Shown: positions 44,067 through 59,859 of the stretch, one piece after another | Numbering within the stretch: position 1 is the first letter of the stretch | Layout: the number at the start of each line of letters is the position of its first letter | Origin: Candidatus Woesebacteria bacterium | GTDB lineage: Bacteria; Patescibacteriota; Microgenomatia; UBA8517 | NCBI GenBank assembly: GCA_016432525.1 | Contig: CP066693.1 | Coordinates: 547,650-611,649, forward strand | DNA: 64,000 nucleotides | Reading direction: 5' to 3' | Translations under genes and position numbers: made by a program | Notes under the pieces: generated by a model | What the model saw: the letters and a program-made list of their open reading frames with translations, nothing else | Told to the model about the DNA's origin: nothing | Databases searched by the model: none

Positions 44067-44105
44067 AAGTTGACAAAACAACTTCGTTTGCTACAAAATA
44101 AATAA

Positions 44106-44846: not shown

Positions 44847-44911
44847 TCTCTTCTTGACATCTACTACTAAAATATATCAAAATGAATAGATCCAAAACTT
44901 TGTAGAACTAA

Positions 44912-45751
44912 ATGCACAAAAGTGTACTTGTTAAAGAAATAATTGATAGCCTGCACATTAATAGTCAATCTCGGATAATAGATGCAACTCTAGGAGCTGG
45001 TGGCCACACACAAGAAATAGTTAAAAGAGGAGCAAAAGTCTTAGGTGTCGAAACAGATCCAAAAATGCTTGAAATTGCCCGAAAAAACCTAGAAAGCTTC
45101 AAGGATAGAGTAATTTTTGCAAAAGGAAACTTTAAAGATATCGACTCAATAGCAAAAAATAACAATTTTGAAAAAGTGGACGCAATTTTATTTGATCTTG
45201 GAATAAGTAGCTTTCATATAGACGATTTCAAAAGAGGTTTTAGCTTTAGAGAGCGTGAAAGCCTTCTTGATATGAGGCTTGATCCAGATAGTCTTGCACT
45301 TAAAGGATCAGATCTACTAAACACTCTAAGAGAAGATCAGCTAAAAGAACTTTTTTCAGTATCAATTACAGAGCCTGATTTATCTAGACTTGTCAGAAAA
45401 ATCATAAATTATAGAATTCAAAACTTAATAAAAACTGTTGGCCAATTCAAAGAAATTGTTGATTCAGTTTCCTCTAGAGGTAGAAGCTTAATTCCATCTA
45501 CTCTCGCATTTATGGCAGTAAGAATAGCAGTTAATTCAGAACTTGATGTTTTAAGCCAAGCTCTTCCAAAAGCATATTCACTGCTTAAAAAGGATGGAAA
45601 ACTTTTGATTATAAGTTTTCATTCAGGCGAGGATAGTATAGTTAAGAAATTTTTTAAAAAAGAAGGAATTCTCATTATACCCACAAAAGAAGAGATTGAC
45701 GAAAATAGCCGTGCTCGGTCAGCAAAACTTAGGATTCTTACAAAAACATGA
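44912..45751 (+). CDS. rsmH: 16S rRNA (cytosine1402-N4)-methyltransferase RsmH (MraW)
   Basis: HKSVLVKEIIDSL...IDATLGAGGHTQEI...FDLGISS motifs of RsmH; first gene of the dcw cluster. Confidence 0.85.
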   Translation: MHKSVLVKEIIDSLHINSQSRIIDATLGAGGHTQEIVKRGAKVLGVETDPKMLEIARKNLESFKDRVIFAKGNFKDIDSIAKNNNFEKVDAILFDLGISSFHIDDFKRGFSFRERESLLDMRLDPDSLALKGSDLLNTLREDQLKELFSVSITEPDLSRLVRKIINYRIQNLIKTVGQFKEIVDSVSSRGRSLIPSTLAFMAVRIAVNSELDVLSQALPKAYSLLKKDGKLLIISFHSGEDSIVKKFFKKEGILIIPTKEEIDENSRARSAKLRILTKT

Positions 45752-46035
45752 TTAAAAATAAAAAAGTAAAAATCAACTTAATAATTATCGCCCTACTTTT
45801 CTTGGCCAATGTTTTAGTTTCAGTTGGAAATGGGAATTTTGGGTCAAACCTAGTAGATGTCGAAAAAAAATCACTTACACTGACTGAAGAGAACAAAAAA
45901 ATAAAACAACAGATAATAGCCTCTGACTCTCTAACAAAAATTGAACAACAAGAGCTCCAAAATGGTTTCCAAAAACCAGACAATATTGTCTATATAAAGA
46001 CTATTCCAACAGTCGCTCAAGCTTCCACTAAATAA
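45748..46035 (+). CDS. ftsL: FtsL-like cell division protein (small bitopic membrane protein with coiled-coil)
   Basis: 95 aa, one TM helix then a coiled-coil segment; positioned between rsmH and ftsI as ftsL is in dcw clusters. Confidence 0.45.
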   Translation: MIKNKKVKINLIIIALLFLANVLVSVGNGNFGSNLVDVEKKSLTLTEENKKIKQQIIASDSLTKIEQQELQNGFQKPDNIVYIKTIPTVAQASTK

Positions 46036-46038
46036 GAA

Positions 46039-47739
46039 GTGAAAAAAAGATTAACTGCTCTTTCATTAATCTATGTAGTAAGTATTCTTTTTATTTCAGT
46101 CCGTCTCTTTTTTTGGCAAATTGTAAAAGGATCCTCCCTTTCCCAAATTGCAACATCTCAATATCAAAGTCAGTCTCAAACTAAAGCTTTTCGTGGGGCA
46201 ATTCTTGACAGTGGTGGTTCATATCTTGTTGCAAGTGTCACCTCCTGGAGATTATTTGCAAATCCTCCAAAAATTAAGGATAACAAAAAAGTTATAGCAA
46301 ATACTCTTGCCCCACTTCTAGTTGAGGACCCAAAAGATATAAAAGATGAAGTTTCTCTTATAGAGAATGATCTCAATAGTAACTCTCCTTATATTCCAAT
46401 AAAAGAAAAAATAAGCGATGATGTAAAGAAAAAAATTGAGAATTTAAGTTTTACAGGATTGGGATTTGAAAGTATTGAAGATCGTCTATATCCAGAAGGC
46501 TCAAGTTCAGCCCAACTTTTAGGTTTTGTTGGCAAAGATAAGGAAGGCGGAGATGTTGGTTACTTTGGCTTAGAAGGTTATTACGACCTTCCTCTTAAAG
46601 CAAAAACAGGCTTTACAATTAGAGATACTGATCCATTTGGCCATCCAATTCTTTCAGGCGATTTAAGCTCGGTTCCTGAACTTGGAGGCGTAGATTTAGT
46701 AACCTCAATAAATAAAGGTATCCAACTTTTGGTTGAGCAAAAACTTTCAAAAGCAATGGAAACCTATGAAGCCAAATTGGGAAATGTCATAATTATGGAT
46801 CCTAAGGATGGCAAAATTCTAGCAATGGCTTCCTATCCCTCTTTCGACCCAAGAAAATACTATGATTATAGTAACGAACTTTTTAAAAATCCTAATATTT
46901 CAGATAGTTTCGAGCCAGGCTCCATTTTCAAGCCTCTGGTAATGGCAGCTGGCTTTGACTCTAAGGTTATTAATAAAAACACTTTCTGTGACATTTGTGA
47001 TAAACCTTACAAAGTTGATAAGTATCAGATAGAAACTTGGAACCAACAATACTTTCCCAATTCTTCCATGACAGATATTATTGTTCATTCGGATAATGTT
47101 GGAATGACTTTTGTGGGTCTAAAGCTTGGAGGTAAGCGCTTAATAGATTATATAGATAAATTTGGGATCGGTCACTTAACTGGAATTGATTTACAAGGTG
47201 AGGATACTCCTCCTTCAAGAAAAAAAGATGAATGGAACATAGTCGATGAGGTCACCGCGACTTTTGGACAAGGAGTTGCAGTAACTCCTATCCAAATGAT
47301 AAGGAGTCTATCTACAATTGCCAATGGTGGCTTCTTAGTAAGACCTCATGTAGTCCAAAGTATTAAAAAAGATGATTTTACAAAAAACGTAGAATTAGAT
47401 GCTCCAACTAGAGTAATAACCAAAGATGCAGCAAACACAGTAAAAGATATGATGATTAAAGCAGTTAAAGACGGTGAAGCAAAATGGGCAATGCCAAAAG
47501 GCTTTTTGATAGCCGGAAAAACAGGAACAGCTCAAATTCCAGTTGCCGGACATTACGACTCAAAAAAAACAATCGCAAGCTTTGTAGGTTTTGCTCCAGC
47601 CAATGATCCAAAATTTATCATGTTAGTTTCGTTAACTGAACCTCAAAGCTCTCAGTGGGGAGCAGAAACAGCAGCTCCCTTGTGGGCAGATATTGCTCGC
47701 GATTTATTCCCAATGCTTGGTATCCATCCAGAAAATTGA
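46039..47739 (+). CDS. ftsI: Class B penicillin-binding protein / peptidoglycan D,D-transpeptidase FtsI
   Basis: N-terminal TM anchor; SxxK (SIFKP), SxN (HSDN) and KTG (KTGTA) active-site motifs in the correct order. Confidence 0.85.
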   Translation: MKKRLTALSLIYVVSILFISVRLFFWQIVKGSSLSQIATSQYQSQSQTKAFRGAILDSGGSYLVASVTSWRLFANPPKIKDNKKVIANTLAPLLVEDPKDIKDEVSLIENDLNSNSPYIPIKEKISDDVKKKIENLSFTGLGFESIEDRLYPEGSSSAQLLGFVGKDKEGGDVGYFGLEGYYDLPLKAKTGFTIRDTDPFGHPILSGDLSSVPELGGVDLVTSINKGIQLLVEQKLSKAMETYEAKLGNVIIMDPKDGKILAMASYPSFDPRKYYDYSNELFKNPNISDSFEPGSIFKPLVMAAGFDSKVINKNTFCDICDKPYKVDKYQIETWNQQYFPNSSMTDIIVHSDNVGMTFVGLKLGGKRLIDYIDKFGIGHLTGIDLQGEDTPPSRKKDEWNIVDEVTATFGQGVAVTPIQMIRSLSTIANGGFLVRPHVVQSIKKDDFTKNVELDAPTRVITKDAANTVKDMMIKAVKDGEAKWAMPKGFLIAGKTGTAQIPVAGHYDSKKTIASFVGFAPANDPKFIMLVSLTEPQSSQWGAETAAPLWADIARDLFPMLGIHPEN

Positions 47740-48643
47740 CTGATTCTGATATAATTATATACGTTGTGGAAAGTTAATCATGGAAAACATAGAAAAAAAA
47801 GTAGTCTTAGTCATATATAGATGCGAATTAGGAAAAACTGAATTTCAAAAACAATTTAGTTTTTAAATGACGATACTCCACCAGAAGCACTACCTTGTAT
47901 ATGTGAATCAAAAAATCAAGAACATTCTGCTGTTATTTCTAAAATAGAAGTCGTAGAGCTATCTCAACCTCGAAGTCTTGAAAGAAAACTTTAAAAATAA
48001 TTAATGTTTAAAGATAGAAGACCAGGGATAGGTGAAGGAGAAGCAAACCAATATATTTATGCCTATGTCGATCAAAAAAAAGCAGGGTTCGATACGGCAG
48101 CAGTTTTAAAAGAATTGCAAACTTTTTACCCTTCAGACCTAAATATTAACAACTCGCAAAGATTCCCAACTATAATTTTGGGAATCGGATGTGTTTACCA
48201 TCTTCGGCTGCAATGTGTATTAACTTAATTAAAGGTCGACGGATAATAAGCGATTCAAACGAAACTTCTATTAAAGTAAGCGATATTTATAGACTACTGC
48301 TTCCACTTCACGGTAAAAACCTAGATTCACTATTCCCTTCCTTCCAGTGAAAGACAAGCTGATGACGAGAAAGTGCATTGTCAAAGGGCGCCGATTATCT
48401 CAATGAGGTCCGAACCAAGCAGGGGGACTGCAATCTGAAGAAGCTTGCTTGGGCGATGATGTGATTCATCAATTGACATCGGTTATAAGGTCATGATAGA
48501 GGAAGTAGGGGAGGGGATGCAACCGTGTGATATTGGGCCAAGAGACCTTCGTAGCCGAAACTTCCTAGAACTGTACAAGACTATACAAATGAGCAGGGCA
48601 TTGGCTCAGAGAGATCTATACTGATCACGCATGACAGATTGAC

Positions 48644-49024
48644 TTGGCAGAGGGGATCATGGCTGTACCACTTGTCCTCATCGTTGACGATGATCCTGCG
48701 CAGTTGATGTTGTATAGCCTGGTACTGCGACCGTTACCGTGCTACATTGCAACGGCACCGAGCGGCGAAGCAGCGCTCAAGCTGCTTGAGAATGCGCACC
48801 CGGCACTCCTGATAGTCGATATTCTCTTGCCCGGAATGAGTGGGGCAGATGTGATACGTACCATTAGGAAGGATGCGCAGTTTGCGCCAATGAAAATTGT
48901 TGCCCTAACTGTTGTTCCACACATGCTTGCCCAGGAGGATACGGCTCTTTGCAATGTCGTGCTTGCCAAACCAATCGGTGTGGCACAACTCAAACAAGTG
49001 ATTCGAGACTTGTTGGGTGTATAG
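48644..49024 (+). CDS. Stand-alone response regulator receiver (REC, CheY-like) domain protein
   Basis: LVLIVDDDPAQL (acidic pocket); phospho-acceptor Asp in LLIVDILLPGMSG; the downstream conserved residues of REC domains are present; 126 aa with no output domain. Confidence 0.75.
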   Translation: MAEGIMAVPLVLIVDDDPAQLMLYSLVLRPLPCYIATAPSGEAALKLLENAHPALLIVDILLPGMSGADVIRTIRKDAQFAPMKIVALTVVPHMLAQEDTALCNVVLAKPIGVAQLKQVIRDLLGV

Positions 49025-49426
49025 GTGGCTGATCCTCCCGTATTCCGATTCCAGTCGGCGGGACAAGGTAATTCTCGTTGCCCCAACAGTACAGCGAGAA
49101 TCTGTTCTTTGTCGCGCAAAGTCGCGGAATGTTGGAAAAGTCAGGCGAAAGGTGAGCCACGATCAAAGCGTCTAAAGCGTATGAAGTTAAATGTCGAGAA
49201 AACCAGTGTGAGTGAGAGTTTGGACCTGCAATCCATCCTTAAGTGTCCAGTATGCGGGTTTTCCAAAGAGGAAATCATGCCGACGGATAGTTGCCAATTC
49301 TTCTATACTTGCACAAATTGTCACACACGACTACGGCCTAAGCCTGGCGATTGCTGCGTGTTTTGCTCGTATGGGAGCAAAAAATGTCCGTCCAAACAGA
49401 GGGAGGAGTCCGATCAATTGCCGTAG
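49025..49426 (+). CDS. Cys-rich small protein with GDCCVxC-like metal-binding motif
   Basis: CPVCG...CTNCH...GDCCVFCSYG...C cluster; translational junction ATG right after the REC stop; the alternative start at the Met at 49181 gives about an 81-aa product. Overlaps a convergent small ORF at its 3' end. Confidence 0.4.
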   Translation: MADPPVFRFQSAGQGNSRCPNSTARICSLSRKVAECWKSQAKGEPRSKRLKRMKLNVEKTSVSESLDLQSILKCPVCGFSKEEIMPTDSCQFFYTCTNCHTRLRPKPGDCCVFCSYGSKKCPSKQREESDQLP

Positions 49427-49523
49427 TCTGCGCCGTTTCCATCAAGCTACAGGAGGAAAGGGGAATAAGGGCGGTAACGAAAACCAGTACAATGAGACGC
49501 ACAATAATACTTTTTTGCGACAT
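49338..49523 (-). CDS. Possible small lipoprotein (61 aa)
   Basis: MSQKSIIVRLIVLVFVTALIPLSSC has a signal peptide with a lipobox-like LSSC. Overlaps the 3' end of the plus-strand Cys-rich ORF, so one of the two may be spurious. Confidence 0.25.
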   Translation of the reverse strand: MSQKSIIVRLIVLVFVTALIPLSSCSLMETAQTTAIDRTPPSVWTDIFCSHTSKTRSNRQA

Positions 49524-49826
49524 GTTTTAGGCGCAGGGATTGGATGGAAGGGGGTATAACAAGGATAGGACTTACGCAGTTGGAGGGGTTCTTGGCGCTA
49601 CGAGCCGATTCCGCAGAAATGCCCAAACCGGCGTTTTGCTGCACAGGAAGCCTAACTTGGGGTTCAACTGCGTAACTCCTACCCCTACAGAGTCACTTAG
49701 GGAGAGCTAGAATGGGCAGCAAACTCAAGAAAAAAGCTCTGGCTTATAGTCTGAGCAAAGGGGGTGACGACACTATTGGGGCTATGGGGTGGAACACAGG
49801 GGTGATCGTTAACCCTTTCGATGATT

Positions 49827-50639
49827 TTATGTCGAATCCCGAAGTATGTCGATCACCGTAGTGATCAATCGGTCGTTTTGAAGTGCAAAAGTATGAACGG
49901 ACTGCCTATTGGTGTCGATTCCTTGGATTATGATATGAGGTTGTGTTGCACACAGAACTCTGCCTTCATCTAGACCAACTATCTCATCGCCCTCTGTAAC
50001 TATGTTTATAATTCGCTGTACTGGGGAATTCCCCTCAGCGCAGCCTTCGATAATCCTCATCAAACCATTCGTCCGAAGTTCTTGGAACACTAGCGGAGGC
50101 TGCTGCGAACCAAGAAACGGTCTATTCTTTTCAAGAAAATTTGCCTTGTAGGCTTCCCAGTATTTGTCTGAGCCTCGCAATGGTGAGTTTATGATGGTTA
50201 TAGACCGCACCCGCTTCACAGTATCTGATTTTGCGCGAGATCGAGTGATAGCCCAATATAATGCGATAGTTCCCATTAATGAATGGCATACCATATCTAC
50301 AACAGACCGTCTATAAAACTTAAGAAAATCATCAAACTGATATGCAAAATCAGAAATTGACTGAATAACCGTATCCTTTTTGGAATAAGAGAATCCTGGA
50401 TCACGGTATCCTAACCACTGTATAGATACATACGTATCTTTTACTTTGATCTGCTGATGAATGGCCTGAGCTAAAAGATCGAATGATTTTCTGCCTTCGT
50501 ACCAGTTTTGCAGGGAACCTGGCCCCAAAAGAATGAGCCGATCCTGCTGTGAATGCACCTCAGCTTCATTTTTGTTACGAGCAGAGATGCTTACAGCCCG
50601 CATGAACTTTCCAATTTTCTCTTCTTCACTGTCCGGCAT
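49827..50639 (-). CDS. Hypothetical protein (270 aa), weak alpha/beta-hydrolase-like features
   Basis: G+C-rich ORF with good coding look; CHSLMG resembles but does not match a GxSxG nucleophile elbow; no firm family assignment. Confidence 0.3.
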   Translation of the reverse strand: MPDSEEEKIGKFMRAVSISARNKNEAEVHSQQDRLILLGPGSLQNWYEGRKSFDLLAQAIHQQIKVKDTYVSIQWLGYRDPGFSYSKKDTVIQSISDFAYQFDDFLKFYRRSVVDMVCHSLMGTIALYWAITRSRAKSDTVKRVRSITIINSPLRGSDKYWEAYKANFLEKNRPFLGSQQPPLVFQELRTNGLMRIIEGCAEGNSPVQRIINIVTEGDEIVGLDEGRVLCATQPHIIIQGIDTNRQSVHTFALQNDRLITTVIDILRDST

Positions 50640-50674
50640 AAAGATCCTGCTAAAGTAGCGATGAAATAAATAAA

Positions 50675-50704
50675 GGCTTGCTCATCTTATCCGTTGAGCA
50701 AGTC
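50675..50704 (-). terminator. Candidate intrinsic terminator for the minus-strand 183-aa gene
   Basis: GGCTTGCTCA - 10-nt loop - TGAGCAAGTC hairpin immediately downstream (minus-strand sense) of the stop at 50763, followed by a T-rich run on the minus strand. Confidence 0.35.
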
Positions 50705-50762
50705 TTATAGAATACACTATATGTAGTTAGTGGTCGAATTATATGGAAGTCAAACTGCCGCT

Positions 50763-51314
50763 TCAATCAATATGTTCAATTCGCCCAGAAGAAAATACCC
50801 TTATGTCGTGTGACTCAACAGTTCCACGCAAGACAGTGCCATTATCTGCTATTGGCGGAGAAAAACAAGCCCATTGCGCATTGAGATCAATTTGAATCTT
50901 AGAAATCAGAGAATGATATGGTTTGCACTGACGGTCAAACTTCGCGTGTCGAACATCCAACTTGAAATGCGGCGCTCTGCTGAAAAGGTCGCGTGTAACT
51001 GTCAAAATAACCGTGTCATCCTTGGTATGGAGCAGACTGTCTTCGACGAGAGAGATTTCATAAACAGCAACTTCTTGATCTGAATCAGGATCATCGCTCT
51101 TCTGTTGGACTTCGACAGGATTTCCAAAAACATGAGCAAGTTCACTTATCCAATCAACGTTGCTGTCCGTATAATTGATTTCCCGAAGATCGGCTGCTAC
51201 GGACACTTTTCGATTTCGTTCAAAAGAATGATGAGGTTGCGTGCTCTCTGAGCGATTAATAATCGAGGCAACAAATCCTCTCAATCGACTCTTTTCTCTT
51301 TCTTTAGAAGCCAT
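50763..51314 (-). CDS. Hypothetical protein (183 aa)
   Basis: G+C-rich ORF, acidic central region, no recognisable motif. Confidence 0.35.
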   Translation of the reverse strand: MASKEREKSRLRGFVASIINRSESTQPHHSFERNRKVSVAADLREINYTDSNVDWISELAHVFGNPVEVQQKSDDPDSDQEVAVYEISLVEDSLLHTKDDTVILTVTRDLFSRAPHFKLDVRHAKFDRQCKPYHSLISKIQIDLNAQWACFSPPIADNGTVLRGTVESHDIRVFSSGRIEHID

Positions 51315-51463
51315 GATTGCTCCCTACATGTGAAGGATGATGAGTATTCCGATCGCCCGACGCGCGAATCGGCAATAGCTCATCCTCCAATAAGATGACA
51401 CAATAAGATAACATATAATGACATTATCATGTTTTTGTGCTATTATGTCAACCCGTTAAAGTG

Positions 51464-51483
51464 TTAACATGCTGTCATGTTAA
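51464..51483. promoter_or_regulatory. Perfect palindrome TTAACATG-N4-CATGTTAA (candidate operator) in divergent promoter region
   Basis: 8-bp inverted arms with a 4-bp spacer overlapping the first ATG of the wHTH ORF; related half-sites (GTTAACA, ACATTATCATG) occur 30-70 bp upstream. Confidence 0.35.
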
Positions 51484-51737
51484 GATTCAGGGGGAATGGT
51501 CTGATCATGAACGAGGGCCTCTCAATTTATGCTAATAAGATCTTGGATTTACTGCGCCAGCGGGGCGAATGGATGAAAAGGAGTGAAATTGCAAAAGGGT
51601 TAGGCCGCAAACGCTTGACTGGCAGCCACCTTACTGCACTGGCAATACTTGAGGAGCGCAAACTCATCGAGGTTGAAAAGCGGCCAGACAATCGCCCAAT
51701 CGGACTTATATTCTTTTACAGAGCAATCAACGATTGA
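51477..51737 (+). CDS. Small winged-helix DNA-binding protein (putative transcriptional regulator)
   Basis: ILDLLRQRGEWMKRSEIAKGLGRKRLTGSHLTALAILEERKLIEV is a wHTH-like pattern; the true start is possibly the Met at 51507 (MNEGLSIY). Confidence 0.4.
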   Translation: MLRFRGNGLIMNEGLSIYANKILDLLRQRGEWMKRSEIAKGLGRKRLTGSHLTALAILEERKLIEVEKRPDNRPIGLIFFYRAIND

Positions 51738-52012
51738 GTTTCTGCTTCCTGGGTTTGGGTCGTCTTGGGCCGTCCCTCACAACACGGACACTCGAAGCGC
51801 TTGGGGCGATAGCGGATCACAACTTCCCAGCCAAAACTGGGCAGATGTCTCACCTGTACCCACTCACTGTACCCGGCAAAGCGCCGTATCTCCCGTCCAC
51901 AACGTTTACAGTGTGTGCTTTCCACACTGATGCTCAGTTGCTTGGCTCCCTGTACCTCGACCTTCACCACCTCTACATCAGGTAGATCCAATGGAATGGT
52001 GAGTTCGGCCAC
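51716..52012 (-). pseudogene. ISL3-family transposase, N-terminal zinc-finger fragment only (truncated)
   Basis: LDLPDVEVVKVEVQGAKQLSISVESTHCKRCGREIRRFAGYSEWVQVRHLPSFGWEVVIRYRPKRFECPCCEGRP matches the ISL3 N-terminus (C-x2-C ... RFxC-x2-C zf-ISL3). Stops after 98 aa, so no catalytic DDE region. Confidence 0.6.
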
Positions 52013-52155
52013 CCTACTCTCTCACTTCGTTTGCTCCCTACCCCTGCCTAATACTACTCCCACAGGTACGCCCGACTCCAGAATCTCCCAATGAACCGAA
52101 TTTCCTCGGTCATTTGCCGAACATCTTCTGCATCTAACCTGTTTTTCGCTATGAT

Positions 52156-52299
52156 TGTCAGTTTTAACGAAAAATGAAAGGATTTTTTACAACAAAATTG
52201 AAATCATAAATTAAACTTATCCCTTATTATTGGGATAAATAGTAAATAGACATTTCATTTTTCACATAAATTCTGTTACAAATTTCGTTAAAACTGACA
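52156..52299. repeat. Perfect 17-bp inverted repeat pair (TGTCAGTTTTAACGAAA / TTTCGTTAAAACTGACA) flanking a 110-bp A+T-rich spacer; MITE-like
   Basis: Copy 1 at 52156-52172, reverse-complement copy 2 at 52283-52299; the second arm overlaps the 3' end of the toxin ORF. Confidence 0.5.
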
Positions 52300-52633
52300 G
52301 CTTGTGATCATTTCTGGATTTTTTTACTATATGTAAATAGTGGATTGTACGATAATTGGTGATGAAGAAGATTCTGATCCAGTGTTTTCGTTTGGGGAGT
52401 CTTAGTTCCCGCAGTTTACCATCAATCTGTCCTGTATGTAGACTGCCCAGTAAATTTCCCTCTTGCTTGTGTCGTCTGATAAGTTGTTCTACAGCGCTTC
52501 GCTCTAAATTTGGCAACCTCTCGATATATTCTTGAACTGGTGACCGGCCTTGTTTCGTTTTGTAGAACTCGACTGCAAATCGCGGTTTCTCCAACCTGGC
52601 CTCCTTCTCGTTACGCACCGGATAGTGAGCCAA
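52262..52633 (-). CDS. Type II toxin, RelE/ParE superfamily, Gp49/HigB-like (DUF891-type)
   Basis: VEFYKTKQGRSPVQEYIERL...GKLRELRL...RIFF...IHYLHIVKKSRNDH follows the Gp49-like toxin consensus (xEFy...G..pv..f...l.....LRelR....RifY......i.LLH.F.KKt.k.p). No adjacent HTH antitoxin ORF is evident. Confidence 0.55.
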   Translation of the reverse strand: MAHYPVRNEKEARLEKPRFAVEFYKTKQGRSPVQEYIERLPNLERSAVEQLIRRHKQEGNLLGSLHTGQIDGKLRELRLPKRKHWIRIFFITNYRTIHYLHIVKKSRNDHKLSVLTKFVTEFM

Positions 52634-52703
52634 CAGGCAGTCCTAATTTTCAATTTTTGAAATCAAAAAAGGACTCGAATCCTTTTTAACTACCGATCAC
52701 AGA

Positions 52704-53093
52704 ATGAAAATAATAAAACATAAATCAGGATGTATAATAATCGATGATACTTACAACAATAATCCTCAGGCAGCACTTAAAGCTTTAAAGACATTGGAAT
52801 CAGTGTCTAGTGGTAAAAAAATTGGAATAGTTTTTGGTGACATGCTTGAATTAGGCAAAAATGAGGCTAAATTTCACAAGAAAATAGCTCGAAAAATACA
52901 AAAATTAAAACCAAAATTTATAGTTTTAGTAGGTAACGCAACAAAAGGTTTGATCAAAGAATCTTTCTGGTTTGAAAAAAACCAAACTAAAGAAATAGTA
53001 ATGACTCTCAAAAAACTAATAAAAAAAGACTTCGTGGTTCTTTTTAAAGGTTCTCGATCAATCGGTCTGGATGATATAATATCTAAGTTATGA
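52704..53093 (+). pseudogene. murF: murF remnant: C-terminal domain only of UDP-MurNAc-tripeptide--D-Ala-D-Ala ligase
   Basis: IIDDTYNNNPQAALKALKTLESV...KIGIVFGDMLELGKNEAKFHKKIA...KGSRSIGLDDII is the Mur ligase C-terminal domain. The reading frame is closed upstream, so only about 129 of the expected 430-460 aa are present. Confidence 0.6.
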
Positions 53094-54142
53094 ATGTCCC
53101 AAACATTCTCCCTTTGGTTTTAGGGTTAATTCTGTTCTCGTTCTTTGTTTCGAGCCTTCTAGTTGTTCCATTTATTAACCTTCTTTACAAAATCAAGCTT
53201 ACCCGTCGTCGAGAAGCAATGGGTAAGAAAAAAACTCTTTTTGAAAAACTTCATGATATCAAATCAGGTACACCAATTGGAGGTGGGGTTTTGATAATTG
53301 TCATAGTTGTTACCCTTTTTGCAGTCCTTTTTCCAATCCTTTTAAATTTTGGAGTTTTTATTCATTCATCTTTTAATCTCTTTAAAGAACTTCTAGTCAT
53401 ATTTTTTACATTCATTTCGTTTGGTCTTTTAGGACTTCTCGATGACTTTGTAAAAACATTTGGAAAACCCAAAACAGGAAACGTAGGTGCTGTTTTTGGT
53501 CTAACTAAAAAACAAAAATTTTCAATTCAATGGGTTCTTGCCTTAATTACAGCCTTTATCCTTTATCAATTTTTGGGAATCCATATCCTTCATCTTCCAC
53601 TTCTCAACTCAGTTATAGATCTCGGAATTTTTTATGTTCCTTTTGCAGCAACAGTCATAGTCTTCTTTGCAAATGCCTTTAATTTCACAGACGGGCTTGA
53701 TGGCTTAGCATCTGGCCTACTTGTAATTTATTTAATTAGCTATATCTTTATAAGTGCAGGTAACCTTGATACAACTCTTTTTATGTTCATTTCAATTTGG
53801 CTCGGCGCAATAATTGCCTTCCTTTACTTTAATGTTTATCCTGCTCGTGTTTTTCTGGGGGATGCAGGAGCTCTTTCTTTTGGTTCAACCATAGCACTCA
53901 TTGGTTTATTAACAGGAAATGTCGCAACTCTTTTTGTGATTGGTGGGATTTTTGTAATTGAAGCAGCCTCAAGTGCAATTCAAATCATCTCAATCAAATT
54001 CTTCAACAAAAGGGTTTTTCCTCTTGCTCCAATTCATCACAGCTTCTTGGCAATTGGCTGGGAAGAACCAAAAATTGTGATGAGAGCCTGGATTGCAGGT
54101 ATAATTTTGGCAATTTTTGGGCTTTGGCTTGCCGCAATTTAA
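53090..54142 (+). CDS. mraY: Phospho-N-acetylmuramoyl-pentapeptide transferase MraY
   Basis: About 10 TM helices; NAFNFTDGLDGLASG and VFLGDAGALSFGSTIA motifs. Confidence 0.85.
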   Translation: MNVPNILPLVLGLILFSFFVSSLLVVPFINLLYKIKLTRRREAMGKKKTLFEKLHDIKSGTPIGGGVLIIVIVVTLFAVLFPILLNFGVFIHSSFNLFKELLVIFFTFISFGLLGLLDDFVKTFGKPKTGNVGAVFGLTKKQKFSIQWVLALITAFILYQFLGIHILHLPLLNSVIDLGIFYVPFAATVIVFFANAFNFTDGLDGLASGLLVIYLISYIFISAGNLDTTLFMFISIWLGAIIAFLYFNVYPARVFLGDAGALSFGSTIALIGLLTGNVATLFVIGGIFVIEAASSAIQIISIKFFNKRVFPLAPIHHSFLAIGWEEPKIVMRAWIAGIILAIFGLWLAAI

Positions 54143-55214
54143 AATGCAAAAAAAACCAGTTGATCGCCTTCTTTTAATTCTCACATTTCTCCTTACACTA
54201 ATAGGTATAATTTTTGTAGCCGATGTTTCAGCTCCACAAGCAAAAGCTTTCTTTTCCGACAGCTACTTTTTTGTAAAACAACAATTGATTTGGGGAGTTT
54301 TAGGAATAATTGCGCTAATAGTTGCAAGTAAAATTCACTATATTTTTTGGAAAAAAATTTCATACTATTTATTTTTCGCAAATATCTTTTTACTAATCTT
54401 GGTTTTGATTCCGCATTTTGGTAATAAGCTTCTTGGAGCTAGGCGGTGGATTAGTTTTGGGCCTATTACAATTCAACCATCAGAGTTGGTAAAACTAACT
54501 CTTGCTCTTTACATTGCAAATCTTGCTGATAGGAAAAAAGAAGTTCTTTATTATTTAATTCCAGTCGCACTCGTTGCAGGGCTCATTATGCTTGAGCCAG
54601 ATCTAGGAACAACAATTATTGTTGTTGCAATTGGTCTAACTCAAATATTTCTTGCAGGTATTCCTCTTGTTTATTTAGCATCAATTTTAGGTACAGGGGG
54701 AATTGTCGGATTCATATTAATAGTTTTTTCAAATTATAGAAAAACAAGATTTATGCATTTCTTAAGCGGTCTGAAAGATCCATTGGATAGCTCCTATCAT
54801 GTAAAACAAATTCTTTTCGCTTTAGGATCAGGTGGTCTTTTCGGAGTAGGTATTGGCCAATCAAAACAAAAATATCTTTTTTTGCCTGAGGCGGCAACAG
54901 ATTCTGTTTTTGCAATAATTGCAGAAGAAATAGGATTTTTTGGAAGTCTTGCAATTATTATTCTTTTACTTTTGATAGTTTTAAGAATTTTTAAGATTGC
55001 CAAAAGCGCACCTGACACTTTTTCCAACATCTTGGTTAGTGGAATAGGTATCTGGCTTGGAATTCAAATCCTAATCAATCTTGGCTCAATTGTAGCCCTT
55101 ATTCCCTTAACTGGCGTACCACTACCGTTCTTTTCATATGGAGGCTCAAGCTTGACAATGTTGCTTTTAGGTATTGGAATAGTATTAAACATAAGTAAAT
55201 ATGCAAAAAAATAA
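54117..55214 (+). CDS. ftsW: SEDS-family peptidoglycan glycosyltransferase FtsW
   Basis: RWISFGPITIQPSELVKLTLALYIAN and the C-terminal PLTGVPLPFFSYGGSS motifs of the FtsW/RodA family; position between mraY and murG. Confidence 0.8.
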   Translation: MGFGLPQFKMQKKPVDRLLLILTFLLTLIGIIFVADVSAPQAKAFFSDSYFFVKQQLIWGVLGIIALIVASKIHYIFWKKISYYLFFANIFLLILVLIPHFGNKLLGARRWISFGPITIQPSELVKLTLALYIANLADRKKEVLYYLIPVALVAGLIMLEPDLGTTIIVVAIGLTQIFLAGIPLVYLASILGTGGIVGFILIVFSNYRKTRFMHFLSGLKDPLDSSYHVKQILFALGSGGLFGVGIGQSKQKYLFLPEAATDSVFAIIAEEIGFFGSLAIIILLLLIVLRIFKIAKSAPDTFSNILVSGIGIWLGIQILINLGSIVALIPLTGVPLPFFSYGGSSLTMLLLGIGIVLNISKYAKK

Positions 55215-56283
55215 TATAGTTATAACAGGCGGGCATGCAGCAACAACGGCCCTGGCAACGATACAAAGCTTAAAAACCAAAGACCCAAATTTAGAAATTT
55301 ACTTTATAGGTGTAAAAAAAGCACTCGAAGGAAAAAATACTCAGACATTAGAATCGCAAATTTTTCCACAAATTGGAGTTTATTATCGTACAATTACCAT
55401 GGGCCGTCTTCAAGCCAAATTCACAAGATATACAATTCCCTCTCTTCTCAAAATCCCAATTGGTTTTTACAATTCTTTAAACTTGCTTCTAAAAATACGA
55501 CCAAAACTGATCCTTTCTTTTGGTGGCTTTGCATCAATTCCAGTCTGTTTTTGGGGATATTTGCTAAAAATTCCAATAATAATCCATGAACAAACCGTTT
55601 CTGTGGGTCTTGCCAACAAAATTTCCTCTATATTTGCAACAAAAATAGCCTTGGCAAGAGAAGAAAGTAAAGCCTTTTTCCCGATCTCAAAAACTATTTT
55701 AACCGGAAACCCAATTCTTGGATCAATTGTAAACATCAAGCCTAAAAACAAAATAGGTTCACCTCCAGTTATTTTCATAACATGTGGCTCTCGTGGCTCC
55801 CAGACAATAAATAATGCTTTATTTCCAATTCTGGAAAAGCTAGCTAAAAACTTTAAAATCATCCATCAAACAGGTGAGTTAGATTTCGAAAAGTTCAATA
55901 AATTGAATCTAAAAAATTACAAAGCCTACAAGATTATATCACCTTTCGAGATAGGTTCATTTTATAAAACGGCAGACATAATAATTTCCAGATCTGGAGC
56001 CAATACCATTGCAGAAATTATGCTTCTAAAGATTCCTTCGATTATTATCCCCATTCCATGGACAAGATATAATGAACAAACAAAAAACGCTTTATTTGCG
56101 AAAAAATATGCTCCTATAGAAATAATAAAACAAGATTTGCTAAGCCCAGATTTACTGTTTCAAAAAATATATTTTTTGAAAAACAATTGGAGCACTCTCA
56201 AGAAACAAAACAATAAAAGTTTTCAAAATGATACAAAAGCAGCAAAAAATCTGACCAATCTAGTATTTGAATACATAAAGTGA
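55201..56283 (+). CDS. murG: Lipid II synthase MurG (GT28)
   Basis: IVITGGHAATTALA N-terminal glycine-rich motif; C-terminal GANTIAEIMLLKIPSIIIP region; position in the dcw cluster. Confidence 0.8.
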   Translation: MQKNNIVITGGHAATTALATIQSLKTKDPNLEIYFIGVKKALEGKNTQTLESQIFPQIGVYYRTITMGRLQAKFTRYTIPSLLKIPIGFYNSLNLLLKIRPKLILSFGGFASIPVCFWGYLLKIPIIIHEQTVSVGLANKISSIFATKIALAREESKAFFPISKTILTGNPILGSIVNIKPKNKIGSPPVIFITCGSRGSQTINNALFPILEKLAKNFKIIHQTGELDFEKFNKLNLKNYKAYKIISPFEIGSFYKTADIIISRSGANTIAEIMLLKIPSIIIPIPWTRYNEQTKNALFAKKYAPIEIIKQDLLSPDLLFQKIYFLKNNWSTLKKQNNKSFQNDTKAAKNLTNLVFEYIK

Positions 56284-56969
56284 ACAAAAAAATAATTTAC
56301 TTCCTAGAATTTGGAATAATTGTTATAATCGTTACTATTTTTTTGAAGAAATTTTTAATAGTTAAAAAAATCAGATGTATAAGTGACATTAGCTGTAGTA
56401 TCACTCTTACCCAGAAACTTCAAAAAGCTCAAAATCTACCTCTTTTTACATCAAAATCAACGGTTTTAGATATTCTAAAAAAAGAAGTTACAGTTAAAAA
56501 CTATTCAATGAGAATAAAACCGCCCGATAGTTTAGAAGTTTATATTATAGAGAGAAAAGAAAGTGCAGGCTTTGCCGCAAATGGAAAGTTTGTTTACGTC
56601 GACGATGAAGATGTTGTTATAAAATTCTCAGACAAAAAAGATAATGTTCCGCAGATTAATATCTACGATGGTAAAAATTATAAATTTAGAATAGGTGACA
56701 AGCTCCCAGAAAATCTAGTATTCGCTAGTGCTTTATCTCGCGATCTCTCAAATTTGTATGCAATTAAAGAAATTACTTTAGGAAAAACTGACATTTCAGC
56801 CAATTTTCCAAACCTAAAAGTTTTCTTCCCCACAAAAGATGACGAAGACCTTTTAATTGGAAGGCTGAAATTCGTTCTTTCCTGGTTGAACAATAGTTTC
56901 TTACCTTCTAAAATGAAAACACTGGATCTAAGATTCAAAAATCCAGTCGTGAGAAGCGAAAATGGGTAA
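56280..56969 (+). CDS. ftsQ: Cell division protein FtsQ/DivIB-like (POTRA domain)
   Basis: N-terminal TM helix, then a POTRA-like region (VKNYSMRIKPPDSLEVYIIERKESAGFAANGKFVYVDDEDVVI); position before ftsA. Confidence 0.55.
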   Translation: MNKKIIYFLEFGIIVIIVTIFLKKFLIVKKIRCISDISCSITLTQKLQKAQNLPLFTSKSTVLDILKKEVTVKNYSMRIKPPDSLEVYIIERKESAGFAANGKFVYVDDEDVVIKFSDKKDNVPQINIYDGKNYKFRIGDKLPENLVFASALSRDLSNLYAIKEITLGKTDISANFPNLKVFFPTKDDEDLLIGRLKFVLSWLNNSFLPSKMKTLDLRFKNPVVRSENG

Positions 56970-58242
56970 AAATAAAATAATTGCTGCGATTGATATAGGA
57001 TCATCAAAAATAACAACTTTAATAGCGCAACTTGTTGTTGATCAAGTAACTCTTGATTCTTCATTAAACATAGTAGGTGTGGCAGTTGCTCAATCAAAGG
57101 GAGTTAAAAAAGGTCAAATTGTCGACATCGAAGATGCAGTTGAAGCAACAATTCTTTCTGTTGAAGCAGCTGAAAGAATGGCAGGATATAACCTAAACAG
57201 CGCTTTTATTTCAGTAGCTGGAGGCCATATTGGTTGCCAAAATTCAACAGGTGTAGTTGCCGTCTCAGATCCAAACGGTGAAGTAACTCCAGGTGATGTT
57301 GAAAGAGTAATTGAAGGAGCCAAAGCAGTTTCACTTCCAACATCCAGAGAAATTATCCACGTTATTCCAAGACAGTTCACAGTTGACGGAGAACAAGGAG
57401 TTAAAGATCCTGTTGGCATGGCAGGTGTTCGTCTTGAAGTAGACACTCATCTAGTAACAGCCTCAGCGGCAGCTTTAAAAAACCTCTCCAAAACTGTAAA
57501 CGAAGTAGGAATAAAAATCGACGAAGCAGTCTTTTCGGGTTTAGCAAGCTCATTTACAACTCTCACGGAAACTGAAAAAGAGCTTGGCTGTGTTCTTGTG
57601 GATATTGGGGCAGGGACAACATCAGTAGCTGCCTTTGTTGATGGCTCTCTTTCCTATTCATCTTCAATTCCAATTGGAGCTCGAAACGTAACAAACGATT
57701 TAGCAATTGGCTTAAGAGTTTCTCTCGAATCTGCTGAAAAAATAAAACTCGCGCTCTCTAGCAAAAAAAAGCAAGGAAAGGTTGAAGAAAAAGCAGAATT
57801 TTTTGATATAGGAACCCTTTCAGGTGAGGAAAGCAAAAAAGTTTCAAGAAGAACGTTAGTTGAAGGAATAATAAAACCAAGACTAAATGAAATATTTACC
57901 ATGGTTAAACTCGATTTAGAAAAATCAAATATTATAAATAGAATCCCATCAGGTGCAATCATTACAGGTGGAGGATCGCAAACTGTAGGGCTTTTGGAAT
58001 CAGCTAAAAAAACTTTAGCTCTTCCAGTAAGAATAGGAATCCCAACCGGAGTTACTGGCTTAATAGATGACATAGGCACTCCAGCTTTTTCAACTGCAGT
58101 CGGATTAATTCTTTACGCAAAAGAAAAAGAAGGTTTCAAAGAAATTCCTCAAAAAAATTTTGCACCTAAAATTAAAATGCCCACCAAAGGCATTCACTTA
58201 CCTAATAAAATTATAGATATAATAAAAAATCTTCTGCCTTGA
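56962..58242 (+). CDS. ftsA: Cell division protein FtsA
   Basis: IIAAIDIGSSKITTLIAQ actin-fold phosphate-1 motif; DIGAGTTSVAAF phosphate-2; GGGSQTVGL adenosine motif. Confidence 0.85.
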   Translation: MGKNKIIAAIDIGSSKITTLIAQLVVDQVTLDSSLNIVGVAVAQSKGVKKGQIVDIEDAVEATILSVEAAERMAGYNLNSAFISVAGGHIGCQNSTGVVAVSDPNGEVTPGDVERVIEGAKAVSLPTSREIIHVIPRQFTVDGEQGVKDPVGMAGVRLEVDTHLVTASAAALKNLSKTVNEVGIKIDEAVFSGLASSFTTLTETEKELGCVLVDIGAGTTSVAAFVDGSLSYSSSIPIGARNVTNDLAIGLRVSLESAEKIKLALSSKKKQGKVEEKAEFFDIGTLSGEESKKVSRRTLVEGIIKPRLNEIFTMVKLDLEKSNIINRIPSGAIITGGGSQTVGLLESAKKTLALPVRIGIPTGVTGLIDDIGTPAFSTAVGLILYAKEKEGFKEIPQKNFAPKIKMPTKGIHLPNKIIDIIKNLLP

Positions 58243-58293
58243 TGCTTGTAATAAAAACATTCACGATGTAGAATCGTGGGAAATATATAATAA

Positions 58294-59439
58294 ATGGCAC
58301 TAGTCAAACCAGATTCAGCTAGAATCGCAAAAATTAAAGTAATGGGAGTAGGTGGTGGTGGTGGAAATGCAGTAGCTTCGATGGTTGATGGTGGCCAAAT
58401 AAACGGTGTCGAATTTATAGCTTTAAATACAGATGCCCAAGTTCTCCTCGCAAGTCAGGTTCCAACCAAACTCCAGATTGGAGAAAAACTTACCAAGGGC
58501 CTGGGAGTGGGAGGTCACCCCGAAATTGGTGCTCAAGCTGCAGAAGAATCAACAGAAAAAATAAAGGAGGTATTAATTGATGTAGATATGACTTTCATTA
58601 CAGCAGGAATGGGTGGGGGAACTGGTACTGGTGCAGCTCCTGTAATTGCTCGACTTGCCAAAGAATCAGGCTCCCTTACTGTCGCAGTTGTCACAAAACC
58701 ATTTGCTTTCGAAGGAGCCAGGCGCATGATGCTAGCAGAAGAAGGAATAGAAAAATTAAGAAAAGAAGTTGATACTTTAATTGTTATTCCAAATCAAAGG
58801 CTTTTGGATGTTGTTGATCGAAAAATGACTCTTCTAGAAGCATTCAAAGTTGCAGATAGCGTTTTGGGTCAGGCTGTTGCAGGAATTGCCGAAATTATCA
58901 CAACTCCAGGTCTCGTTAACGTTGACTTTGCAGATGTTAAAGCCATTATGTCCGATGCAGGTTCCGCACTTCTTGGAATTGGAACTGGTGTTGGAGAAAA
59001 TCGTGCACAAATGGCAGCCCGTGCAGCAGTTTCATCTCCACTTTTAGATCTTTCAATAGAAGGAGCTCGCGGAGTTCTTTTCAACATTGCAGGTGGGCCT
59101 GACCTTACAATGTTTGAGGTAGACGAAGCAGCTCGTGTCATTTCAACAACAGCTGATCCTGATGCGAATATCATGTTTGGAGCTGTTATTAAAGAGGATA
59201 TGTCTGATCAAATTAGAATTACAGTTATTGCAACAGGATTTGACGGCTCAGCCGCAGAAATTCATGAAATTCACTCAGCTCCACCCCCACCTCCAATTCA
59301 GGGAGTAGTAAGTGAAGGAATTAAAAAAGAGGAAGAACCTATGGATGAAGATCAAAAAGAAGAATTTGCAAACCCCCGCGACAAAGATGAATTTGGTGAT
59401 GAATTCGAAATACCTGCTTTCCTTCGTAAAGTCCACTAA
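58294..59439 (+). CDS. ftsZ: Cell division GTPase FtsZ
   Basis: Tubulin signature [10 protein letters not shown]; T7 loop NVDFADV; the conserved C-terminal peptide [11 protein letters not shown]. Confidence 0.9.
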
Positions 59440-59459
59440 CATTGATCCATAATTATTTT

Positions 59460-59503
59460 AGTGTTATAATTTTTAAATTTAGTTAGCTCTTTAAGGAGGC
59501 ATC
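59460..59503 (+). promoter_or_regulatory. Promoter -10 and ribosome-binding site for small gene
   Basis: TATAAT at 59466-59471; AAGGAGG at 59493-59499, 4 nt before a TTG start. Confidence 0.35.
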
Positions 59504-59809: not shown

Positions 59810-59848
59810 GCGCCTTATTGGCACAAAAAACCATAAAGGCGCTTTTTT
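59810..59848 (+). terminator. Rho-independent terminator
   Basis: GCGCCTT - loop - AAGGCGC stem directly after the TAA stop, followed by TTTTTT. Confidence 0.55.
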
Positions 59849-59859
59849 CTTGCGAAAAA

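What the first reader, a model, noticed from the sequence alone, without database searches (positions are those of the whole stretch)
52262..52633. Orphan Gp49/HigB-like toxin straddling the island boundary, with its 3' end inside a MITE-like inverted repeat
The ORF matches the RelE/ParE-superfamily Gp49 consensus throughout, including the C-terminal LLH-F-KK signature. No HTH antitoxin gene follows it. Its 5' two-thirds are G+C-rich, while its last about 25 codons lie in A+T-rich DNA that includes one arm of a perfect 17-bp inverted repeat. An inserted miniature element may have replaced the native 3' end and the cognate antitoxin.
Basis: partly seen in the sequence, partly recalled or inferred. 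Interest (0 to 1): 0.55.

Follow-up and report, generated by a model that had tools for sequence, protein, structure and literature searches.

The report
Broken orphan HigB-type toxin gene
This is the decayed remnant of a HigB/Gp49-type toxin gene inside a small block of foreign DNA in a Woesebacteria genome: a 144-base palindromic insert has cut off its functional tail and a transposon fragment sits where its antitoxin should be, which is an ordinary kind of gene decay.

Summary
ORF 52262-52633 (-) is a Gp49/HigB-type RelE-superfamily toxin (Pfam 35.4 bits; fold match to S. pneumoniae HigB and M. tuberculosis HigB1). The real start is probably TTG 52594, giving 110 aa, as NCBI annotates it. 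A profile of 40 homologues aligns up to Lys98 and stops one base before a perfect 17-bp inverted-repeat arm. The last 12 codons and the stop lie in a 144-nt, 23% G+C palindrome (52156-52299). They lack the family's C-terminal helix motif [ED][IL]xxAxxR[ML].

The interpretation needs three corrections.
- The gene does not straddle the island edge. G+C-rich island DNA resumes beyond the palindrome, and the island ends at about 52645, upstream of the toxin.
- A 58-nt remnant beyond the palindrome (52098-52155) probably still encodes part of the native helix (IIAKNRL; p about 0.01).
- A truncated ISL3 copy (52097-51755) abuts that remnant. It, not the palindrome, accounts for the missing antitoxin. 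No HTH is found in any frame for 1 kb downstream.

"MITE" is unproven: I found one copy only, and no significant target duplication. The locus is identical in four assemblies, so it is not a one-off assembly chimera. Verdict: an ordinary degraded toxin-antitoxin remnant of low interest.

The parts
48301..52645 (.). G+C-rich foreign island (about 47% G+C in a host of about 32%), lying between ftsI and a 5'-truncated murF
   Evidence: Composition. Gene content. The same junctions are 100% identical in other assemblies.
52300..52594 (-). Native 5' part of the HigB/Gp49-like toxin gene: TTG start at 52594, codons 1-98 plus one base
   Evidence: Pfam Gp49. NCBI 110-aa product. The homologue HMM aligns nodes 3-96 and ends at Lys98. 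AF2 model and Foldseek hits to 6AF3/6AF4/7NBU.
52600..52606 (-). Shine-Dalgarno-like AAGGAGG, 5 nt upstream of the TTG start
   Evidence: Read directly from the sequence.
52156..52299 (.). 144-nt A+T-rich palindromic insert with perfect 17-bp terminal inverted repeats (52156-52172 and 52283-52299)
52262..52299 (-). Element-encoded replacement tail of the ORF (LSVLTKFVTEFM) plus the TGA stop at 52262-52264
   Evidence: Translation. No family signal in this tail.
52215..52240 (-). Central hairpin of the palindrome. It resembles an intrinsic terminator and lies about 22 nt after the ORF's stop.
   Evidence: Consensus scan. This is a pattern match only.
52098..52155 (-). 58-nt remnant, probably the rest of the toxin's native C-terminal helix (reads IIAKNRLDAEDVRQMTEE)
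   Evidence: PSSM rank 5-10 of about 70,000 window positions. HMM score rises 102.3 to 107.4 bits when joined with 4 missing codons, and 2 of 200 shuffles do as well. G+C 41.4%, equal to the toxin's 5' part.
51755..52097 (-). Left end and N-terminal coding part of an ISL3-family insertion sequence, cut off at 51755
   Evidence: Pfam Zn_ribbon_ISL3 and NCBIfam transpos_ISL3. 90% DNA identity to two Logan contigs that carry DDE_Tnp_ISL3. The terminus GGTTCATTGGG is defined by where three flanks diverge.
52646..53093 (+). murF C-terminal domain only. The host sequence starts here, at the island's right edge.
   Evidence: Pfam Mur_ligase_C. In-frame translation up to the junction. NCBI calls the 129-aa product a hypothetical protein.

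Best explanation
The ORF is the disabled remnant of a higBA-type type II toxin-antitoxin module. It arrived in a Candidatus Woesebacteria genome on a 4.3-kb block of foreign, G+C-rich DNA.

Shown: the first 98 codons are a bona fide Gp49-like HigB core. It has the RelE fold. It keeps the residues that align with the S. pneumoniae HigB active-site residues D61, E66, R68, R73 and K92 (here D58, E63, R65, R74 and K92).

Shown: at codon 99 a 144-nt A+T-rich palindrome interrupts the gene. The palindrome supplies 12 unrelated codons, a stop codon and a terminator-like hairpin.

Inferred, p about 0.01: the 58 nt beyond the palindrome are what is left of the native C-terminal helix, with about 11 nt lost at the junction.

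Shown: an ISL3 insertion sequence abuts that remnant and is itself truncated after 343 nt.

Inferred: the ISL3 insertion and the later deletion removed the toxin's stop codon and the downstream HTH antitoxin.

Inferred from published work on M. tuberculosis HigB1: the long C-terminal helix of Gp49-like toxins contacts the P-site tRNA and is needed for activity, so the chimeric product is probably non-toxic or weakly toxic. That would explain why the gene persists without an antitoxin. Only about 50 nt of native DNA survive upstream of the start, so its own promoter may also be lost.
For: Family membership: Pfam Gp49 35.4 bits. There are 71 phmmer hits in 1.8 billion representatives, the best at 40% identity. 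The family profile hits S. pneumoniae HigB 6AF3 at E=2.5e-25 and M. tuberculosis HigB1 7NBU/7AWK. The AF2 model has pLDDT 88.6, dropping to 68-76 in the last 20 residues. Foldseek top hits are 6AF4, 6AF3 and 7NBU with TM 0.70-0.76.

Breakpoint: the homologue HMM alignment ends at Lys98, one base before the repeat arm. The homologue motif [ED][IL]xxAxxR[ML] has Ala in 37/40 and Arg in 34/40 sequences, and the ORF tail lacks it.

Remnant: PSSM rank and HMM gain, and matching G+C. The spacing to homologue P0008 (KSRNKHQQDDIDIALGRM) is exact if 4 codons are missing.

ISL3.

No antitoxin. The expected gene order is seen in homologue P0004, where the toxin is followed directly by a 107-aa HTH_31/HTH_3 protein.

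Helix function: PMC9098466 reports that helix alpha3 residues K113 and R117 contact the P-site tRNA and that K113A abolishes activity.

The locus is real: 100% identical in contigs from three sequencing runs, and in an NCBI MAG over the stretch its contig covers.
Against: The catalytic core shows no stop, frameshift or lost active-site residue apart from Phe90 to Val, which 6 of 40 homologues share. Residual activity therefore cannot be excluded.

AF2 models the replacement tail as a short helix (residues 100-109), which might partly substitute for the native one.

The far-side remnant needs an ad hoc 11-nt loss. Its support is only p about 0.01, and I chose the spacing after seeing the data.

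If the weak 8/9-nt flanking repeat were a true target duplication, the reconstructed pre-insertion frame would not read the family motif.

There are no expression data and no second sequence with which to test selection.
Confidence: 0.7

Rival explanations
1. The ORF is a functional toxin variant. Its HigB core is intact, the element-derived 12-residue helix replaces alpha3, and it is controlled by an unrecognised antitoxin. That could be an RNA from the palindrome or a protein encoded elsewhere. Alternatively it acts as a solitary stress or defence nuclease.
For: All core catalytic positions are retained. The ORF has a strong Shine-Dalgarno sequence. The tail is modelled as a helix. A terminator-like hairpin follows the stop. 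At least one homologue (P0008) also has no called antitoxin gene downstream.
Against: The family's conserved helix motif is missing. Point mutations in that helix abolish activity in HigB1 (PMC9098466). No HTH protein is found in any frame nearby, and there is no Rfam hit. The neighbouring genes are visibly decaying, with a truncated ISL3 and a truncated murF. Only about 50 nt of native upstream DNA remain.
Confidence: 0.12
2. The palindrome is a true MITE of the Woesebacteria host. It transposed into the toxin gene after the island arrived.
For: It has perfect 17-bp terminal inverted repeats, is small and is non-coding. Its G+C (23%) matches the host, not the island. Homology to the toxin family breaks precisely at its end. 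Family-like sequence resumes at its other end.
Against: There is a single copy in about 74 kb of this genome. Exact-match scans of about 596 Gb of genome representatives, JGI metagenomes and viral contigs found only single-arm hits, and none extends into the element. The flanking 8/9-nt repeat is not significant. The junction seems to have lost about 11 nt, which clean transposition does not do. Its ends do not resemble the adjacent ISL3 terminus.
Confidence: 0.35
3. The palindrome is not a mobile element. It would be a rearrangement scar or captured host DNA, for example a fold-back or illegitimate-recombination junction, or a host terminator-like hairpin. It would have been joined in during the same decay that truncated the ISL3 copy and murF.
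For: It is single-copy everywhere I searched. There is no significant target duplication. Several codons were apparently lost at the junction. The island has other abrupt truncations.
Against: Perfect 17-bp termini around a much more degenerate interior are typical of transposase-recognised ends. No similar sequence exists elsewhere in the window that could have served as a source.
Confidence: 0.3
4. The A+T-rich and G+C-rich mosaic is a metagenome assembly chimera, and the truncated toxin is an artefact of it.
For: There are sharp compositional switches. Two assemblies break inside the island at 50103 and 50124.
Against: The toxin, palindrome, ISL3 and murF junctions are 100% identical in three independently assembled Logan contigs from different runs and in an NCBI MAG contig. 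Another run (SRR12113415) gave a contig that matches downstream of the island. The island is flanked on both sides by the same host's dcw cluster. An artefactual palindrome would be expected to be perfect, not 68% self-complementary.
Confidence: 0.03

Closest known systems
Gp49-like HigB toxins (Pfam PF05973): S. pneumoniae HigB (PDB 6AF3/6AF4), M. tuberculosis HigB1/HigB-TAC (7NBU, 7AWK) and V. cholerae HigB2
   Same: The sequence profile and predicted fold match. The core residues equivalent to D61, E66, R68, R73 and K92 of S. pneumoniae HigB are present. In an intact relative the toxin is followed directly by an HTH gene.
   Different: It lacks the long C-terminal helix alpha3 that marks this subgroup (PMC9098466). 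That helix is replaced by 12 residues encoded by an inserted palindrome. There is no HigA partner. The nearest relative among 1.8 billion representatives is only 40% identical.
Bacterial MITEs and palindromic elements that land inside genes, such as Rickettsia palindromic elements and Neisseria Correia elements (named from general knowledge, not tested here)
   Same: It is a short (144 nt), non-coding, A+T-rich palindrome with terminal inverted repeats. It sits inside a coding sequence and contributes codons to the product. The host has a small genome.
   Different: Only one copy is known and there is no convincing target-site duplication. It introduces a stop after 12 codons instead of an in-frame insert. 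No related autonomous element has been identified.
ISL3-family insertion sequences
   Same: The neighbouring fragment has the ISL3 zinc-ribbon N-terminus. It is 90% identical in DNA to copies that encode DDE_Tnp_ISL3, starting from a shared terminus GGTTCATTGGG.
   Different: Only 343 nt remain. It has a 12-nt internal deletion relative to those copies and an abrupt cut at 51755. It is not related to the palindrome's ends.

Membership tests
Gp49/HigB toxin (PF05973, RelE/ParE superfamily) | Sequence match to the family profile above the curated threshold | tested here: met
   35.4 bits against a cut-off of 23.9, E=1.1e-8. A profile of 40 homologues scores 98-103 bits.
Gp49/HigB toxin (PF05973, RelE/ParE superfamily) | RelE-type fold: N-terminal helices packed on a four-stranded antiparallel sheet | tested here: met
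   AF2 pLDDT 88.6 with elements E7-10, H19-26, H29-49, E54-58, E61-67, E72-80 and E83-92. Foldseek matches 6AF4, 6AF3 and 7NBU with TM 0.70-0.76.
Gp49/HigB toxin (PF05973, RelE/ParE superfamily) | Conserved core and active-site residues (S. pneumoniae HigB D61, E66, R68, R73, F90, K92; PMC7984235) | tested here: met
   By alignment, D58, E63, R65, R74 and K92 are present, and F90 is Val as in 6 of 40 homologues.
Gp49/HigB toxin (PF05973, RelE/ParE superfamily) | Long C-terminal helix alpha3 with the motif [ED][IL]xxAxxR[ML], which contacts P-site tRNA in HigB1 | tested here: not met
   The profile alignment stops at Lys98. The tail LSVLTKFVTEFM lacks the Ala (37/40 homologues) and the Arg (34/40). 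The functional role comes from PMC9098466.
Gp49/HigB toxin (PF05973, RelE/ParE superfamily) | Cognate HTH (HigA/XRE) antitoxin gene immediately downstream | tested here: not met
   No HTH family in any of six frames over 51250-52270. The downstream space is taken by the palindrome, a 58-nt remnant and an ISL3 fragment. The intact arrangement is seen in a homologue.
Gp49/HigB toxin (PF05973, RelE/ParE superfamily) | Ribosome-dependent mRNA cleavage and growth inhibition | not testable with these tools
   This needs expression and cleavage assays.
MITE (miniature inverted-repeat transposable element) | Terminal inverted repeats on a short non-coding unit | tested here: met
   17-bp perfect arms, 24 nt at 88%, 144 nt overall. 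It is the strongest local inverted repeat in the window.
MITE (miniature inverted-repeat transposable element) | Target-site duplication flanking the ends | tested here: inconclusive
   GCTATGAT and GCTTGTGAT abut the ends, at edit distance 2. 7% of random position pairs in the window score as well.
MITE (miniature inverted-repeat transposable element) | Multiple copies in the genome or in related genomes | tested here: not met
   One copy in 64 kb plus 10 kb of the same genome. Only single-arm chance hits in genome representatives, metagenomes and viral contigs. The other roughly 840 kb of the genome could not be read.
MITE (miniature inverted-repeat transposable element) | Ends related to those of an autonomous insertion sequence | not tested
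   No IS with TGTCAG... ends was available. The adjacent ISL3 terminus GGTTCATTGGG is unrelated.
ISL3 insertion sequence (the neighbouring fragment) | ISL3 transposase with zinc ribbon, HTH and DDE domains between terminal repeats | tested here: not met
   Only the zinc-ribbon N-terminus (Pfam 27.3 bits; NCBIfam 34 bits against a cut-off of 180) and one terminus are present. It is therefore a fragment.

The most novel reading that the evidence does not exclude
The 144-nt A+T-rich palindrome is the first sighted copy of a mobile palindromic element native to Woesebacteria (Candidate Phyla Radiation). It would insert into coding sequence and bring its own stop codon and terminator, like Rickettsia palindromic elements in another reduced genome. 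Here it would have disarmed an incoming toxin by swapping its tRNA-contacting helix. A weaker variant is that the chimeric toxin is still active and is controlled in an unknown way.
Probability: 0.12. Interest if true: 0.45.

Novelty: new member of a known kind. Interest (0 to 1): 0.2.

Why it matters
The practical value is for annotation. NCBI labels this product a type II toxin-antitoxin system RelE/ParE family toxin. In fact it lacks the helix that related toxins need for activity, and it has no antitoxin. It should be read as a remnant and not counted as a working module.

It also records horizontally acquired, higher-G+C DNA decaying inside the cell-division (dcw) gene cluster of a small-genome episymbiont. 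That would matter more if the accompanying murF truncation proved to be the only murF copy. The palindrome would gain interest only if further copies exist in the genome.

Tried and rejected
- Word-indexed protein search found only the protein itself. The exhaustive phmmer search was needed to collect homologues.
- An exact-product look-up of the 110-aa protein found nothing. Neighbouring proteins recovered the same locus in other assemblies.
- Exact-match scans for the repeat arm in genome representatives, metagenomes and viral contigs gave only single-arm hits. None extends past 20-36 nt. The central hairpin gave no viral hit. The window's own genome is not in the genome collection, so its other 840 kb stayed out of reach.
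- Sensitive blastn and nhmmer of the element against the window and 10 kb more gave only A+T-rich noise.
- A plain HMM search of six-frame translations did not pick up the far-side remnant, which is too short. A dedicated PSSM and a join test were needed.
- I tested a target-site-duplication model. It is not significant, and the pre-insertion frame it implies does not read the family motif (and reading of the sequence).
- Negative results: no tRNA integration site, no Rfam family, and no sigma-70-like promoter on the toxin strand.
- The 86-aa winged-helix-like ORF 51477-51737 (+) was considered as an antitoxin and rejected. It is on the opposite strand, lies beyond the ISL3 fragment, has only weak MarR/ArsR-like hits and is not XRE-type.
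- A search for close MurF relatives, meant to reconstruct the pre-island locus, gave nothing closer than 47% identity, mostly on short contigs.

Full report
**What is at the coordinates.** The window is about 32% G+C DNA. It carries a cell-division (dcw) cluster: rsmH, ftsL, ftsI, then murF C-domain, mraY, ftsW, murG, ftsA and ftsZ. Between ftsI (ends 47739) and the murF fragment lies a block of 45-48% G+C DNA, from about 48301 to 52645.

The flagged ORF, 52262-52633 on the minus strand, sits at the right end of that block. A Shine-Dalgarno sequence AAGGAGG lies 5 nt upstream of an in-frame TTG at 52594. That start gives a 110-aa protein identical to an NCBI entry named 'type II toxin-antitoxin system RelE/ParE family toxin [Candidatus Woesebacteria bacterium]', from a 916,571-bp contig. 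Residue numbers below refer to this 110-aa protein.

**Is it a Gp49/HigB toxin?** Yes.
- Pfam PF05973 scores 35.4 bits against a gathering threshold of 23.9, E=1.1e-8.
- An exhaustive phmmer scan of 1.8 billion representatives found 71 relatives. The best is only 40% identical, so this is a poorly sampled branch.
- A profile of the query plus 40 relatives hits S. pneumoniae HigB (6AF3, E=2.5e-25) and M. tuberculosis HigB1 (7NBU, 7AWK).
- An AlphaFold2 model has mean pLDDT 88.6. Its best structural matches are the same proteins, with TM 0.70-0.76.
- By alignment, D58, E63, R65, R74 and K92 correspond to the S. pneumoniae HigB active-site residues D61, E66, R68, R73 and K92 (PMC7984235). F90 is Val here, as in 6 of 40 relatives.

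**Where similarity stops.** In the relatives the last strand (LLHxFxKK) is followed by a loop and a helix with the pattern [ED][IL]xxAxxR[ML]. The Ala is present in 37 of 40 sequences and the Arg in 34 of 40.

An HMM built from the 40 relatives alone aligns the ORF over nodes 3-96 of 114 and ends at Lys98. The next codon, CTG, has the first base of the inverted-repeat arm as its second base. The ORF's real tail, LSVLTKFVTEFM, adds 0.5 bit to the profile score (102.8 against 102.3 bits without it). It contains neither the Ala nor the Arg.

**The inverted repeat.** The arms TGTCAGTTTTAACGAAA at 52156-52172 and 52283-52299 are perfect. They extend to 24 nt at 88%. Further features:
- The whole 144 nt is a degenerate palindrome, 68% self-complementary.
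- It has a central 9-bp hairpin that scores as terminator-like on the toxin's strand, about 22 nt after the TGA stop.
- As a single strand it folds at -43.9 kcal/mol, z=-5.7.
- It is the strongest short-range inverted repeat in the window.
- Its G+C is 22.9%. The DNA on both sides has 41.4%.

The A+T-rich stretch is thus a 144-nt insert within island DNA, not the island's edge.

**What lies beyond the palindrome.** Three things follow on the toxin's strand.

First comes a 58-nt remnant (52155 to 52098) that reads IIAKNRLDAEDVRQMTEE in one frame. A PSSM of the family's helix columns ranks this 10th of 68,928 positions (columns 117-127), or 5th of 76,319 (columns 119-127), among all six-frame positions in the window. 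It starts at the first base after the repeat arm.

Joining it to Lys98 with four unknown residues raises the family-HMM score from 102.3 to 107.4 bits and extends the alignment to node 109. Only 2 of 200 shuffles of the remnant do as well. With four missing codons the spacing matches relative P0008 exactly: KSRNKHQQDDIDIALGRM against KSRNDHK....IIAKNRL. I take this as moderate evidence (about p=0.01, and partly post hoc) that the native helix was split off rather than replaced, with about 11 nt lost.

Second, an ISL3-family insertion sequence starts at 52097.
- The 98-aa ORF 51716-52012 has the ISL3 zinc ribbon.
- Its DNA is 90% identical to two Logan contigs that go on to encode DDE_Tnp_ISL3.
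- The three sequences agree from GGTTCATTGGG inward and differ outside it, which fixes the IS terminus at 52097.
- The similarity ends abruptly at 51755, so the IS is itself truncated.

Third, no HTH or XRE family is detectable in any of the six frames across 51250-52270. In relative P0004 the toxin gene is followed directly by a 107-aa HTH_31/HTH_3 gene, the expected arrangement.

The antitoxin's place is therefore occupied by an IS fragment. The IS insertion plus a later deletion explains the orphan state better than the palindrome does.

**Is the palindrome a MITE?** It has the anatomy but fails or cannot take the other tests.
- No second copy exists in the 64-kb window, allowing 3 mismatches or using sensitive blastn and nhmmer.
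- None exists in a further 10 kb of the same genome.
- Exact scans for a 20-mer of the arm found 12 hits in 596 Gb of species-representative genomes and 21 in JGI metagenomes. A 17-mer scan found 8 in viral contigs. All are single arms in unrelated organisms, and similarity ends after 20-36 nt.
- The source genome is not in the genome collection, so about 840 kb of it remain unexamined.
- The flanks GCTATGAT and GCTTGTGAT look like an imperfect 8/9-bp duplication. However, 7% of random position pairs do as well. Removing one copy does not restore a family-like reading frame.

I therefore give 'host MITE' about 0.35 and 'rearrangement scar or captured host DNA' about 0.3. Either way the effect on the gene is the same.

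**Is the locus real?** The region is 100% identical in two Logan contigs that span the whole island and its flanks, both from the 149,672-bp contig of run SRR12113414 (L040 over 43000-60639, L041 over 43090-64000). A contig from SRR12113388 (50124-57717) and NCBI GCA_016178105.1 contig JACOTY010000018.1 (50103-64000) are also 100% identical, and cover the island's right part and all the toxin junctions. A contig from a further run, SRR12113415, matches downstream of the island. The island is flanked by the same host's genes on both sides. A one-off chimera is very unlikely. These assemblies all appear to sample one population.

**Likely consequence.** Work on M. tuberculosis HigB1 shows that Gp49-like toxins share a long C-terminal helix. 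It lies along the P-site tRNA, and K113A in that helix abolishes mRNA cleavage and toxicity (PMC9098466).

Here that helix is replaced by a short element-encoded segment, which AF2 models as a 10-residue helix with lower confidence. Only about 50 nt of island DNA remain upstream of the start, and no sigma-70-like promoter was found on that strand. The most economical reading is a disarmed toxin that can persist without an antitoxin. This step is an inference, and residual activity is not excluded because the catalytic core is intact.

**Comparison and verdict.** The protein works like, and descends from, Gp49-like HigB toxins. As it stands it fails two defining features: the C-terminal helix and the partner antitoxin. 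It is best filed as a remnant of that family.

The palindrome resembles MITEs and, in its habit of sitting inside a coding sequence in a small genome, Rickettsia palindromic elements. That comparison comes from general knowledge and was not tested here.

Nothing here is a new kind of system. Interest is low at 0.2. It would rise modestly only if the palindrome proves to be a multi-copy element of these bacteria, or if the chimeric toxin proves active.

Noticed in passing
window 52646-53093, with 47740-48300 and the whole window: murF is present only as its C-terminal domain (129 aa, Mur_ligase_C), and its reading frame opens right at the island edge. No Mur-ligase P-loop motif (G[TS]xGK[TS][TS]) occurs in any frame of the 64-kb window. 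No murE or murF N-terminus lies between ftsI and mraY, where another organism's cluster (L046) has murE. The island may have replaced essential peptidoglycan genes, unless copies exist elsewhere in the genome.
   Followed up: partly
window 49563-49684: A second, G+C-rich palindromic unit lies inside the island, between the GDCCVxC gene and the 270-aa gene. Its 20-nt arms are 90% complementary and 82 nt apart. The DNA fold has z=-3.8.
   Followed up: partly
window 48644-49426: A stand-alone response-regulator receiver domain (126 aa) is followed immediately by a 133-aa ORF with a strong GDCCVxC (seleno)protein domain hit (NCBIfam NF041374, E=1.9e-28). This is an unusual pairing inside the foreign block.
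   Followed up: no
window 50103-50124 (inside the 270-aa gene 49827-50639): Two independent assemblies (NCBI JACOTY010000018.1 and Logan SRR12113388_13241) both end within 21 nt of each other inside the island. This may point to strain heterogeneity or a repeat shared with another genome at that spot.
   Followed up: no
window 51755-52097 compared with L035 and L036: The ISL3 fragment has a 12-nt in-frame deletion in its zinc-ribbon region relative to its 90%-identical relatives. In those relatives the transposase is itself split into two ORFs (148 aa and 243 aa).
   Followed up: partly
window 52666-52688: A hairpin AAAAAGGA-CTCGAA-TCCTTTTT lies in the 58 nt of host DNA between the island edge and the murF fragment's ATG. 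It vaguely resembles a tRNA T-arm, but ARAGORN finds no tRNA anywhere in the window.
   Followed up: partly
L055 816-1163 (homologue P0008): This relative is the most similar around the breakpoint. It also has no called or obvious HTH gene in the 417 nt downstream, so orphan copies may be common in this branch.
   Followed up: partly
L046 5444-6396: In an unrelated metagenome contig the dcw cluster also has a 131-aa gene with only the MurF C-domain, after a gap of about 550 nt following murE. This may be a recurrent truncation or a gene-calling problem.
   Followed up: no
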